From assembly GCF_024223415.1 (NCBI RefSeq), contig NZ_CP100500.1: a stretch of DNA of 64,000 bases. One strand, written 5' to 3'. This DNA is from Escherichia coli. Its GTDB lineage: Bacteria; Pseudomonadota; Gammaproteobacteria; Enterobacterales; Enterobacteriaceae. Shown here piece after piece: positions 51,650-53,297 of this stretch; the stretch's first letter is position 1; each line of letters starts with the position of its first letter. A program made the translations under genes and the position numbers. A model generated the notes under the pieces. The model was not told where the DNA came from and did not search any database. It saw nothing but the letters and a program-made list of their open reading frames with translations.

Positions 51650-52738
51650 TTACGCCAGTACGCCAATTGCCAGCGCGCGATCGATAAAACGAAATATCAG
51701 CTCCAGTTGGGAGCCATACTTCTCTTCAAATGCCACTGTATCCGTATGCAGCTCGTTGTAATGCTTTCTGCACAAAGGCAACACAAAGAGATCATGTGCT
51801 TTTGTTCCCATTCCGCCCTGCCCGTGACCAATCAGATGATGCGGATCGTCGGCTGGCATACCGCAGCAAGCACACGGCTGTGTCTTAACCCAACGTGTGT
51901 ATTTCTCCTTAACCCAGCGGCGACGTTTAGGCAGCTTCATGAAAGATTCCGGAGACTCTGGATCAACGGTGATGCTTACCACCGTCTTTTCCTGTGGTAG
52001 TTTTTGTTGCTGGTGGGCGTAAGGCAACGGTACAAGATTTTTTGTGCGTTGTTTCAATATGCTGGTGGCGGTCTGCTCTCCCGGTACGATGTCGCTTTCG
52101 CGGTACACCGAGCAGATTTTTTCCGCTGGTAATCCCAGCGAACGACGCGATACAGCCTCAGGTAGTGCATCCACCACCTGATTGCAGACCGCCCACCAGG
52201 ATAATTCAGCCAAAGATAATTCCCGCTCCTGCGTACCGCTTATTGCGTGACGGATGACGTCAATCACCCATGCTGTCAGATTTTGTTGAGCAAGCAGCTC
52301 CAGTGATTCCGATGTCTGGTCACGCAGTTGGTTGTCGCAGTGCCAACACAACACCATTGCGCCGGTACCATAACGGTGAATGACTGTTTCAGTGTGATGG
52401 TAATCGCCATTAGGCCACTGGCAGGATGTAACATGACGTAATAGCCAGTCAGACAATGAGCCAACGCCGCCAGCAGCACGAATCACCCGTTCGTTACTAA
52501 AAAACGGCAGCAATGTTTTGTCTTCCGCCAGCGGCTGGCCAACGGCAGGAACGACTCCGGATGGCAGATTACGCATGCTTTTTGGTTCCGGTTCCACCAG
52601 CACTCGAGGATTATGAAATATCTGTATGGATTCACGGCCCGGCTTAAGGACCACCAGCCCAAGCTCAGGCACCAGAACAAGTCTAAGTAATACCCGCACG
52701 TTACCTCCAGATCCGTTGCTGGAAAGTGCGGGACGCAC
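51650..52738 (-). CDS. ydfU: YdfU (DUF968, C-terminal Cys/His HNH-like motif); N-terminal start uncertain
   Basis: C-terminal CACCGMPADDPHHLIGHGQGGMGTKAHDLFVLPLCRKHY; low-complexity N-terminus. Confidence 0.75.
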   Translation of the reverse strand: MRPALSSNGSGGNVRVLLRLVLVPELGLVVLKPGRESIQIFHNPRVLVEPEPKSMRNLPSGVVPAVGQPLAEDKTLLPFFSNERVIRAAGGVGSLSDWLLRHVTSCQWPNGDYHHTETVIHRYGTGAMVLCWHCDNQLRDQTSESLELLAQQNLTAWVIDVIRHAISGTQERELSLAELSWWAVCNQVVDALPEAVSRRSLGLPAEKICSVYRESDIVPGEQTATSILKQRTKNLVPLPYAHQQQKLPQEKTVVSITVDPESPESFMKLPKRRRWVKEKYTRWVKTQPCACCGMPADDPHHLIGHGQGGMGTKAHDLFVLPLCRKHYNELHTDTVAFEEKYGSQLELIFRFIDRALAIGVLA

Positions 52739-52979
52739 GTGGTGGGCGTTCGGAGTAAGGCAATCTGACTGAGATTATCCAGTGACGGTAGTCGAGACTA
52801 AGGGCTTTCTTAACCTCGTATCCGCGCCTGCGGTAACACTGAATTATCCATTCAGCCTGCTCTTCAGTGCATGGAGGGTGTTGGAACCATTCAGACTTGA
52901 ATGCGTGAGAATACCGCTCGTGCGTGCAGGCAAGAACGGGCGAATTATCAGAATTGTAATATTTTACGTTGCGTGCCAT
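52701..52979 (-). CDS. rem: Rem-like small prophage protein
   Basis: Position upstream of ydfU; overlaps the ydfU 5' end. Confidence 0.5.
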   Translation of the reverse strand: MARNVKYYNSDNSPVLACTHERYSHAFKSEWFQHPPCTEEQAEWIIQCYRRRGYEVKKALSLDYRHWIISVRLPYSERPPRASRTFQQRIWR

Positions 52980-53045
52980 CGGTTTTCTCCGGTGGCACGG
53001 TGTTACTCAGCGGGAGTTCAGCCCCGCGCAAGATTGTAGATGAGT

Positions 53046-53297
53046 TTATTCTTCTGCAAAAGCTGAAAAGCCTGCTTTTATTCCGATCTCTTTCAGTGCC
53101 TGTAATGAAGTGACAAACTCACCTTCGCGCAAGATAAATCTGTCTGTCACTCGACCATCCACAAAATTAATTAACGCAGCCCCATTCTTTCGCAAACACA
53201 TAATGCGGTAATGACTAACAAGATTTCCATTTTCAACGCACACAGCATAGAGGCCATCTTCACAAAAAATTTTACGCAGTTCTTCGATGTTCATCAT
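53046..53297 (-). CDS. Hypothetical protein, 83 aa (nin-region position)
   Basis: ORF with GGAAGGA SD; no recognised motif. Confidence 0.5.
   Translation of the reverse strand: MMNIEELRKIFCEDGLYAVCVENGNLVSHYRIMCLRKNGAALINFVDGRVTDRFILREGEFVTSLQALKEIGIKAGFSAFAEE

What the first reader, a model, noticed from the sequence alone, without database searches (positions are those of the whole stretch)
51650..53297. YdfU (DUF968), rem and an unannotated 83-aa ORF between the toxin-antitoxin loci and Q
YdfU has a C-terminal Cys/His cluster suggestive of an HNH-like zinc-finger nuclease, but its N-terminal 50 residues are low-complexity and its true start is unclear. Upstream lies an 83-aa ORF with a good SD and no recognisable motifs. 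This nin-region position is where lambdoid phages often carry accessory and host-interaction genes.
Basis: inference. Interest (0 to 1): 0.4.

Follow-up and report, generated by a model that had tools for sequence, protein, structure and literature searches.

The report
Known Qin prophage genes, partly mislabelled
This stretch holds three ordinary genes of a Qin-like defective prophage of E. coli: the known antirepressor Rem, a real 92-codon gene missing from the K-12 reference annotation, and YdfU, a predicted DNA-cutting enzyme that here carries a rare change in its active site.

Summary
Window 51650-53297 is the region just upstream of the late-gene activator Q in a Qin-like lambdoid prophage (99.3% identical to K-12 Qin over 8.4 kb). 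It holds three tightly packed minus-strand genes.

- **The labels were mixed up.** The "unannotated 83-aa ORF" (53046-53297) is rem itself. Rem has been shown experimentally to be an antirepressor of DicA (PMC10448788). The gene missing from the K-12 MG1655 annotation is a 92-aa ORF (52701-52979) between rem and ydfU.
- **The 92-aa ORF (orf92) is a real gene.** dN/dS is 0.09 over codons 27-92, and 39 distinct alleles carry no stop codon. It belongs to phrog_1212. Its homologues sit in the nin region, mostly directly upstream of a nuclease gene: YdfU, RusA, NinG/Rap or YbcO.
- **YdfU's start is not unclear.** It begins at GTG 52699, one base after the orf92 stop, behind a GGAGG. The N-terminus is conserved and confidently folded.
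- **This copy has a rare active-site change.** His314 of the H-N-H motif is Tyr, an allele found in 6 of 5426 complete E. coli genomes.

Verdict: ordinary and largely known. Biochemical function remains untested for YdfU and orf92.

The parts
53046..53297 (-). rem, 83 aa: antirepressor of the Qin repressor DicA.
   Evidence: Annotated as rem, and 95% identical to K-12 Rem (4 substitutions). The family is tagged PF27490 and phrog_340. dN/dS is 0.22 over 22 alleles. Ectopic rem raised dicBp-lacZ 165-fold in K-12 (PMC10448788). SD GGAAGGA lies before the ATG.
52701..52979 (-). orf92, 92 aa: a conserved nin-region small protein (phrog_1212) with no feature in K-12 MG1655. It has a disordered N-terminal 26 aa, a beta-alpha-beta-beta core (residues 28-75) and a basic C-terminal tail ending TFQQRIWR.
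52697..52712 (-). Translational coupling junction: GGAGG (inside the last orf92 codons), TAA stop, one base, then the GTG start of ydfU.
   Evidence: Sequence. The spacing is identical in 80 of 80 IMG/VR loci. Synonymous divergence is reduced in the last orf92 codons.
51650..52699 (-). ydfU, 349 aa (DUF968): an N-terminal module, a flexible linker and a C-terminal HNH nuclease domain.
   Evidence: The alignment of 34 homologues at 26-79% identity is. The AlphaFold model has mean pLDDT 87.
52130..52699 (-). YdfU residues 1-190: a beta-rich N-terminus, then a Cys/His cluster (C93, H101/H102, C118-x2-C121; family consensus 'LCWHHDN') on a beta-hairpin plus helix, then long helices. No known fold match.
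51653..51913 (-). YdfU residues 263-349: a beta-beta-alpha-metal (HNH / His-Me finger) nuclease domain with a zinc knuckle (C276-x2-C279 and C310-x2-H313) and the DPHH motif.
51758..51760 (-). Codon 314, TAC (Tyr), where K-12 and nearly all relatives have CAC (His). This is the last His of the H-N-H motif, in 'CRKH-H-NELH'.
   Evidence: Window versus K-12. The Tyr allele is in 6 of 5426 complete genomes; the His allele with the same flanks is in 1448. None of 72 IMG/VR alleles has Tyr. The position aligns with the His of YbcO's 'CSACH'. Loss of activity is inferred, not measured.
53418..53445 (-). Intrinsic terminator (AACCCGCTTCGGCGGGTT plus a T-run) between hokD and rem. It separates the relBE-hokD unit from rem-orf92-ydfU-Q.
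   Evidence: the sequence is. Function is inferred from the consensus only.
53376..53405 (-). Promoter-like site (TTGAAG, 18 nt spacer, TAGAAT) upstream of rem.
   Evidence: It matches 9 of 12 positions, and the number of such sites in the region is no more than chance (4 found, 4.2 expected). This is a weak lead only.

Best explanation
The segment is the Q-proximal end of the early-right (nin-equivalent) region of a Qin-like lambdoid prophage. It carries three co-oriented, tightly packed genes that run into the Q gene (ATG at 51636).

1. **rem** encodes a small Gifsy-type antirepressor. In K-12 it lifts DicA repression of the dicBF operon. This is shown experimentally for the 95%-identical K-12 protein.
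2. **orf92** is a real protein-coding gene, translationally coupled to ydfU. Its family occupies one fixed slot in lambdoid nin regions: after the Orf-like gene (DUF1367 or YbcN) and, in most cases, directly before a DNA-branch nuclease gene. I infer that it is a small accessory protein of the phage recombination/replication-repair module. Its molecular activity is unknown.
3. **YdfU** is a two-module enzyme. A conserved N-terminal module of about 190 residues, with a probable zinc-binding Cys/His cluster, is joined by a disordered linker to a C-terminal HNH nuclease. That nuclease is of the YbcO/DUF968 group and is structurally closest to P1 Ref. I infer that YdfU cuts DNA recombination or replication intermediates during lytic growth, as Rap and Ref do, with the N-terminal module supplying substrate or partner recognition.

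In this window the third H-N-H residue is Tyr, a rare allele. This copy is therefore probably catalytically weakened, which fits its residence in a defective prophage.
For: **Identity and layout**
- (8.4 kb collinear with K-12 Qin at 99.3%).

**Rem**
- PMC10448788: a 165-fold rise in dicBp-lacZ, and filamentation that depends on dicB/dicF and on Qin.
- The gene is under purifying selection.

**orf92**
- It is under purifying selection.
- The junction with ydfU is the same in 80 of 80 loci.
- In 80 short-form loci, DUF1367 is the upstream gene in 78. The downstream gene is RusA in 62, NinG in 13 and YbcO-like in 5.
- The same slot is used in mEp237, SPN3UB, phiES15, Edno5 and Pocitis76.
- In vB_EcoS-640R1 the order is hok, orf92, ydfU, rusA, Q.

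**YdfU**
- Pfam and PHROG matches.
- A confident model.
- Homologues sit immediately before the late-gene activator in working phages: SfII, mEp460, Stx phages, and P1 PdcB before lpa.
- PMC5714182 proposes a recombination role for this group.

**H314Y**
-.
Against: **No biochemistry exists for YdfU, YbcO or orf92.**
- The P1 homologue pdcB is non-essential in a CRISPRi screen, so any role is accessory.

**YdfU is not simply an alternative junction resolvase.**
- It co-occurs with RusA in SfII and in vB_EcoS-640R1.

**orf92 homologues do not always precede a nuclease.**
- A cytosine methylase follows in vB_EhrS_59.
- An uncharacterised ORF follows in PY54.
- A 59-aa ORF follows in Pocitis76.
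- The association could therefore reflect conserved gene order rather than a physical partnership.

**Nuclease chemistry may not be the family's only role.**
- Three of the 34 aligned YdfU homologues lack the HH and CxxC motifs altogether.

**Rem's target in this window is uncertain.**
- The window's DicA-like repressor is only 57% identical to K-12 DicA.
Confidence: 0.6

Rival explanations
1. orf92 and Rem form a toxin-antitoxin pair, as some automated phage annotations label them ('toxin to Rem', 'Antitoxin Rem'). That would extend the relBE/hokD addiction cluster.
For: The labels appear in PV340562.1 and ON470612.1. The two small genes are adjacent and lie next to two genuine toxin-antitoxin loci.
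Against: About 20 of 80 related loci keep hok, orf92 and ydfU but lack rem. vB_EcoS-640R1 carries the 'toxin' without rem. The short-form homologues live in phages with no rem at all. The genes are separated by 66 bp, whereas orf92 is coupled to ydfU. Rem already has a demonstrated and different function. No PADLOC or Pfam toxin match was found, and no paper supporting the labels turned up.
Confidence: 0.04
2. YdfU is an Orf (NinB)-family recombination mediator fused to an HNH domain. On this view it is a single-strand-specific DNase built on an Orf DNA-binding ring, as Curtis et al. 2014 proposed for 'DUF968' proteins of Gram-positive phages.
For: PMC4118853 describes DUF968 proteins as an Orf-like N-domain plus HNH. 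YdfU matches HNHc_6, the family that now holds those Listeria proteins, at E 1.3e-4.
Confidence: 0.1
3. The genes are accessory 'moron'-type host-interaction, defence or anti-defence genes. YdfU would then act as a nuclease against competing phages or host DNA.
For: HNH domains are common effectors in defence systems; Cap5 and McrA are among the structural matches. The neighbours are toxin-antitoxin loci. The P1 homologue also lies next to phd-doc and is dispensable. Ectopic Rem does change host physiology by inducing DicB and DicF.
Against: No PADLOC match for any of the three proteins. YdfU homologues hold a fixed, operon-internal position before Q in many working temperate phages rather than sitting in variable islands. 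The closest sequence and structure relatives are phage recombination-associated nucleases, not defence effectors.
Confidence: 0.15
4. In this particular window YdfU is a decaying relic: an intact reading frame whose nuclease is dead because of H314Y, and which serves no function in a defective prophage.
For: The rare Tyr allele falls at the otherwise invariant last His of the H-N-H motif. Many truncated or chimeric ydfU fragments exist in databases, including fusions to tail, portal and capsid genes.
Against: The frame is intact and otherwise 98% identical to K-12. Some natural family members lack the motif yet keep the N-terminal module, so a non-catalytic role is possible. The effect of Tyr on activity has not been measured.
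Confidence: 0.35

Closest known systems
Rem of E. coli K-12 Qin prophage (antirepressor of DicA; Ragunathan et al. 2023, PMC10448788), related to Gifsy antirepressors GfoA/FsoA
   Same: The window's 83-aa protein is the same gene in the same position and is 95% identical.
   Different: There are four substitutions. The window's DicA-like repressor is only 57% identical to K-12 DicA, so the cognate pairing is untested. [quoted passage not shown]
YbcO / DUF1364 (PDB 3g27) and the DUF968 group: His-Me finger group 7 of Jablonska et al. 2017 (PMC5714182)
   Different: YbcO is 96 aa and consists of the HNH domain only. YdfU adds a module of about 190 residues of unknown fold and a linker of about 70 residues.
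Ref of phage P1 (RecA-dependent HNH nuclease, PDB 3plw)
   Different: The Pfam score of 16 bits is below the family cut-off of 26.9. P1 has its own separate YdfU homologue, PdcB. RecA dependence could not be tested.
Rap / NinG of phage lambda (branch-specific His-Me finger endonuclease)
   Same: It holds the same nin-region slot downstream of phrog_1212 genes in SPN3UB and Edno5 (directly) and in Pocitis76 (with a 59-aa ORF in between). The predicted architecture is similar: an N-terminal zinc finger plus a helical region, then a C-terminal His-Me finger (PMC5714182).
   Different: No sequence match was found: there is no NinG Pfam hit in any YdfU homologue. The two belong to different His-Me groups (24 versus 7).
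phrog_1212 (phage small proteins of unknown function; N15 'orf QD1')
   Same: Residues 27-92 of orf92 match the whole 66-position profile at 1.7e-35. The C-terminal motif ending in Trp is shared.
   Different: The Escherichia form carries an extra, poorly conserved and disordered 26-residue N-terminus.

Membership tests
DUF968 (PF06147) / His-Me finger group 7 | Profile match above the curated cut-off | tested here: met
   253 bits against a cut-off of 27.8, covering the full 171-position profile. All 34 aligned homologues match.
HNH (beta-beta-alpha-metal) nucleases | beta-beta-alpha-metal fold | tested here: met
HNH (beta-beta-alpha-metal) nucleases | Structural zinc site: CxxC plus CxxC/H | tested here: met
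   C276-x2-C279 and C310-x2-H313 are present. C276 is invariant in 34 homologues. Zinc binding itself was not measured.
HNH (beta-beta-alpha-metal) nucleases | First motif His (general base) in the 'DPHH' strand | tested here: met
   H287 and H288 are present; H288 is conserved in at least 90% of homologues.
HNH (beta-beta-alpha-metal) nucleases | Last motif His (metal ligand) at the start of the helix, 'C-x2-C/H-H' | tested here: not met
   The window has Tyr314. K-12, all 72 IMG/VR alleles and 1448 E. coli genomes have His. The position aligns with the His of YbcO 'CSACH'. Its assignment as the metal ligand rests on general knowledge of HNH enzymes.
HNH (beta-beta-alpha-metal) nucleases | Metal-dependent nuclease activity | not testable with these tools
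   No biochemical data were found for YdfU, PdcB or YbcO.
Ref / RecA_dep_nuc (PF16786) | Profile match above cut-off, and RecA-dependent cleavage | tested here: not met
   The score is 16.2 bits against a cut-off of 26.9. Only 3 of 34 homologues give any hit. RecA dependence is not testable here.
Orf / NinB recombination mediators | NinB-type sequence or fold in the N-terminal part | tested here: not met
Rem / Gifsy-type antirepressors | Orthology to the experimentally tested K-12 Rem | tested here: met
   Same locus and 79 of 83 identical residues. The family is tagged PF27490.
Rem / Gifsy-type antirepressors | A cognate DicA-type repressor present in the same element | tested here: inconclusive
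   A DicA-like gene lies at 59170-59550 but is only 57% identical to K-12 DicA; the DicC-like gene is 70% identical.
Rem / Gifsy-type antirepressors | LexA-controlled promoter (a feature of the Gifsy antirepressors) | tested here: not met
   No CTGT-N8-ACAG site with up to 1 mismatch lies between 53298 and 53520.
Type II toxin-antitoxin pair (orf92 with Rem) | Obligate co-occurrence and coupling of the two genes | tested here: not met
   rem is absent from about 20 of 80 loci that keep orf92, and from all short-form contexts examined.
phrog_1212 | Profile match over the full length of the family | tested here: met
   E 1.7e-35, profile positions 1-66 of 66, residues 27-92.
NinE (PF05322-type, DLP12 b0548) | Sequence similarity to NinE, which holds the same slot in DLP12 | tested here: not met
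   hhalign probability is 0.1%. The two share a position but are not homologous.

The most novel reading that the evidence does not exclude
The phrog_1212 small protein (orf92) could be a general adaptor or regulator for the structurally unrelated nin-region nucleases that its gene precedes: YdfU, YbcO, Rap, RusA and the N15 DnaQ-like exonuclease. For example, its conserved basic tail ending in Trp could tether these nucleases to a host replication or recombination factor, or it could hold them inactive until needed. A common partner for several unrelated phage DNA-branch nucleases has not, to my knowledge, been described.
Probability: 0.12. Interest if true: 0.5.

Novelty: already known. Interest (0 to 1): 0.2.

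Why it matters
The practical value is modest.

- **It corrects a mislabel.** The "mystery" ORF is Rem, whose antirepressor function was published in 2023.
- **It flags a gap in the K-12 MG1655 annotation.** A real 92-codon gene lies between rem and ydfU, at the K-12 position equivalent to window 52701-52979.
- **It gives a testable lead on orf92.** The gene belongs to a family fixed in the recombination slot of lambdoid nin regions, which says where to look for its function.
- **It identifies a natural active-site variant of YdfU.** H314Y could serve as a ready-made control in a first biochemical test of this uncharacterised but very widespread prophage nuclease; some form of the region is present in 4934 of 5426 complete E. 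coli genomes.

Nothing here overturns current understanding.

Tried and rejected
1. **Sequence search of YdfU against solved structures.** Neither the single sequence nor the 34-sequence profile gave a significant hit.
2. **Foldseek against PDB.** The best E-value was 0.6, so nothing was found for the N-terminal module.
3. **Domain fusions as a functional clue.** The N-terminal module appears fused to tail-fibre, tip-attachment J, portal and capsid domains. I read these as deletion or assembly chimeras of decayed prophages, not as informative architectures.
4. **A second, degenerate HNH unit in the N-terminal half.** I tested whether the N-terminal 'LCWHHDN' hairpin-helix is one. hhalign between the two halves of the family alignment gave probability 0.6% and E 0.1, so this is unsupported.
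5. **NinE as a relative of orf92.** hhalign gave no similarity.
7. **The C-terminal 'QQRIW' as a beta-clamp-binding motif.** Only the Trp is invariant across the family, so I do not claim this.
8. **Other library searches.** NCBIfam and PADLOC gave nothing meaningful. Rfam gave no match in 50500-55500.
9. **A literature search for 'antitoxin Rem' / 'toxin to Rem'.** It was swamped by unrelated word matches.
10. **The Ref paper.** PMC3048710 is not held, so the Ref active-site numbering could not be checked.
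Full report
**What is at the coordinates.**
Window 51650-53297 contains three ORFs on the minus strand.
- A 1089-nt frame runs from 51650 to 52738.
- A 92-codon ORF lies at 52701-52979.
- An 83-codon ORF lies at 53046-53297.

The DNA is 99.9% identical to several complete E. coli genomes, and some form of the region is present in 4934 of 5426 genomes. In NZ_CP084096.1 the three are annotated as ydfU (349 aa), 'hypothetical protein' (92 aa) and rem (83 aa). They are flanked by hokD, relE and relB upstream and by the Q antiterminator gene ydfT downstream. In K-12 MG1655 the same layout holds within cryptic prophage Qin, but nothing is annotated between ydfU and rem.

The window is collinear with K-12 Qin at 99.3% over 8.4 kb, so it is a Qin-like prophage of another strain. 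The '83-aa unannotated ORF' is rem. The gene without annotation in the reference strain is the 92-aa ORF, here called orf92.

**Rem.**
A literature search found that Rem has a demonstrated function (PMC10448788).
- It was predicted from similarity to the Gifsy antirepressors GfoA and FsoA.
- Ectopic rem raised transcription from the DicA-repressed promoter dicBp 165-fold.
- It also caused filamentation that depended on dicB/dicF and on the Qin prophage.

The window's Rem differs from K-12 Rem at 4 of 83 residues. Its family is narrow and essentially confined to Escherichia and Shigella. The protein database tags it PF27490, and it is under purifying selection (dN/dS 0.22, 22 alleles).

Two caveats apply to this window.
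- The DicA-like repressor at 59170-59550 is only 57% identical to K-12 DicA.
- There is no LexA box upstream of rem. [quoted passage not shown]

**orf92 is a real gene.**
- The ORF is intact in K-12, with 12 synonymous and 7 non-synonymous codon differences from the window.
- It is intact in all 39 distinct alleles recovered from 80 viral contigs.
- dN/dS is 0.20 overall, 0.05-0.08 for codons 27-75 and 0.6 for the first 26 codons.
- It has a GGAG eight bases before its ATG.
- It matches phrog_1212 over that profile's full 66 positions.
- A profile search found 469 protein clusters; none of the 120 listed carries a Pfam domain.

There are two forms: a 90-92 aa Escherichia form, and a 66-69 aa form in Salmonella, Citrobacter, Klebsiella and E. 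coli phages. More distant members occur in N15 ('orf QD1'), PY54, and Edwardsiella, Hafnia, Erwinia and Cronobacter phages.

**Where orf92 relatives sit.**
In all 80 long-form loci, the ydfU start follows the orf92 stop by one base. The junction reads GGAGG-TAA-C-GTG.

In 80 short-form loci the picture is as follows.

| Position | Gene | Loci |
|---|---|---|
| Upstream | DUF1367 | 78 |
| Downstream | RusA | 62 |
| Downstream | NinG/Rap | 13 |
| Downstream | YbcO-like | 5 |

Annotated phages show the same slot.

| Phage | Gene order |
|---|---|
| SPN3UB | NinB/Orf-like (as annotated), small gene, NinG, YlcG, Q |
| mEp237 | Gifsy-2 STM1020-like ORF, small gene, YbcO, RusA, Q |
| phiES15 | YbcN, small gene, HNH, RusA, Q |
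| Edno5 | small gene, NinG |
| vB_EcoS-640R1 | hok, orf92, YdfU, RusA, Q |
| N15 | small gene, then an RNase_T exonuclease with a Lar domain |

There are exceptions: a methyltransferase follows the small gene in vB_EhrS_59, and uncharacterised ORFs follow it in PY54 and Pocitis76. In DLP12 the same slot holds NinE, which is not homologous.

I conclude that orf92 belongs to the recombination part of the nin region. Whether it physically partners the nuclease that follows it is open. Rem, by contrast, is optional: about 20 of the 80 long-form loci have hok, orf92 and ydfU without rem. This argues against the 'toxin to Rem / antitoxin Rem' labels found in two phage records.

**YdfU start and N-terminus.**
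- phrog_96 (334 positions, annotated 'HNH endonuclease') matches from residue 14 of the 362-codon frame to the end.
- That start is the GTG at 52699, which RefSeq also uses.
- An exhaustive profile-free search found 2367 relatives. Full-length ones down to about 26-30% identity align from residue 1.
- AlphaFold, given 34 diverse homologues, produced a model with mean pLDDT 87. Residues 1-50 score 83-91.

The Leu/Val-rich N-terminus is therefore conserved beta structure, not low-complexity filler, and the start is well defined.

**YdfU architecture.**
- **Residues 1-190** form a conserved module. It carries an invariant or near-invariant Cys/His cluster (C93, C118, W119, D122; consensus 'LCWHHDN') on a hairpin plus helix, followed by long helices.
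  - No Pfam family matches it in any of the 34 homologues.
- **Residues 227-242** are disordered, and the surrounding linker is variable.
- **Residues 263-349** are an HNH domain.
  - hhalign to K-12 YbcO gives E 1.2e-5.

This is not new. Jablonska et al. 2017 placed DUF968 (naming YdfU) with DUF1364/YbcO in His-Me finger group 7. They proposed a recombination role like that of NinG and Ref.

Curtis et al. 2014 described 'DUF968' proteins of Gram-positive phages as Orf-like domains fused to HNH. For YdfU I could not confirm this.
- The Listeria proteins are now in HNHc_6. YdfU matches only the HNH part of that profile.
- There is no NinB signal by sequence or by fold.

**Distribution and likely role of YdfU.**
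Homologues occur in working temperate phages: SfII, SfIV, mEp460, Ayreon, cdtI, Stx2 phages, and Klebsiella, Yersinia and Vibrio phages. They typically lie directly before Q.

Phage P1 PdcB is a 25%-identical homologue. It lies between phd-doc/pdcA and the late promoter activator lpa. It is of unknown function and non-essential.

YdfU co-occurs with RusA in some phages, so it is not just an alternative resolvase. YbcO shows the same pattern. This suggests YdfU is the long-form counterpart of YbcO.

My best reading is inferred from family, fold and position, not shown. YdfU would be an accessory nuclease acting on recombination or replication intermediates during lytic growth, with the N-terminal module providing targeting.

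**A rare active-site allele.**
The window's YdfU reads 'CRKHYNELH' where K-12 reads 'CRKHHNELH'.
- The position is His in every one of 72 viral-contig alleles.
- It aligns with the His of YbcO's 'CSACH'.
- By general knowledge of HNH enzymes, it is the last, metal-binding residue of the H-N-H motif.
- A 33-nt probe carrying the Tyr codon hits 6 of 5426 complete genomes. The His version hits 1448.

This copy is therefore probably catalytically impaired, although that is unmeasured. Three of the 34 distant homologues have lost the motif entirely, so a non-catalytic role for the rest of the protein cannot be excluded.

**Transcription context.**
- A strong intrinsic terminator lies between hokD and rem on the minus strand (53445-53428 plus a T-run).
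- Two promoter-like sites lie before rem and before orf92, but their number is no greater than chance.
- The gaps are 66 bp (rem to orf92), 1 nt (orf92 to ydfU) and 13 nt (ydfU to Q).

This fits one transcription unit running into Q. It is an inference.

**Verdict.**
The finding is real sequence, but it is ordinary and largely explained.
- One gene has a published function.
- One has a published fold classification.
- One is a catalogued phage family that the K-12 reference annotation happens to omit.

The small additions from this work are:
- the corrected labels;
- the evidence that orf92 is a real gene;
- its fixed slot beside nin-region nucleases;
- the defined YdfU start;
- the lack of any known fold for the YdfU N-terminal module;
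- the rare H314Y allele.

Noticed in passing
window 55754-59550: Relative to K-12 Qin, the window has about 2.8 kb of extra DNA after ydfW (55754-58589). The immunity genes beyond it are divergent: the DicC-like gene is 70% and the DicA-like gene 57% identical to K-12, while the flanking ydfX and ydfA are 96-98% identical. This looks like a swap of the immunity region. It raises the question of whether Rem still matches this repressor.
   Followed up: partly
window 53418-53445 (minus strand): A textbook intrinsic terminator (AACCCGCTTCGGCGGGTT plus a T-run) lies just downstream of hokD and upstream of rem. Read-through into rem, orf92, ydfU and Q would probably need antitermination or a separate promoter.
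   Followed up: no
window 53033-53060 and 53010-53027 (minus strand): A promoter-like site (TTTGCA, 16 nt spacer, TACAAT) overlaps the end of rem. A GC-rich hairpin (GCGGGGCTGAACTCCCGC) with no T-run follows, just before orf92. Either may be chance, since the count of promoter-like sites is at the level seen in shuffled sequence.
   Followed up: no
proteins P0289, P0290, P0246, P0254, P0362, P0224, P0273: Database proteins fuse the first 150-300 residues of YdfU to tail-fibre, tip-attachment J, portal or capsid domains. These are most likely products of large internal deletions in decayed prophages, or assembly chimeras, rather than true domain architectures.
   Followed up: partly
phage P1 (M95666.1, MH445380.1) versus window 51650-54267: The gene order is parallel. 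In P1 the toxin-antitoxin pair phd-doc is followed by pdcA, then pdcB (the YdfU homologue), then the late activator lpa. In Qin, relBE and hokD are followed by rem and orf92, then ydfU, then the late activator Q. This may be coincidence.
   Followed up: no
alignment A1, rows P0293, P0314, P0356: Three full-length YdfU homologues have lost the DPHH motif and the second zinc pair of the HNH domain. They keep the N-terminal module and the C-terminal helices. These look like naturally inactivated nuclease domains within the family.
   Followed up: no
window 53514-53740: No Rfam family reached its gathering score in 50500-55500. This includes the hokD region, where a Sok-type antisense RNA might be expected.
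   Followed up: no
L003 (PV340562.1, phage PhiR42_1) 3607-4020: This deposited phage genome annotates a 414-nt ORF on the opposite strand where orf92 lies. It also starts ydfU about 40 codons late. This is an example of how orf92 gets missed.
   Followed up: no
loci L009-L088: There is strong mosaicism inside the rem-orf92-ydfU-Q block. For example, orf92 can be 99% identical next to a ydfU that is 79% identical, with a Q of a different type (40% identity). The recombination break points therefore fall at or within these genes.
   Followed up: partly
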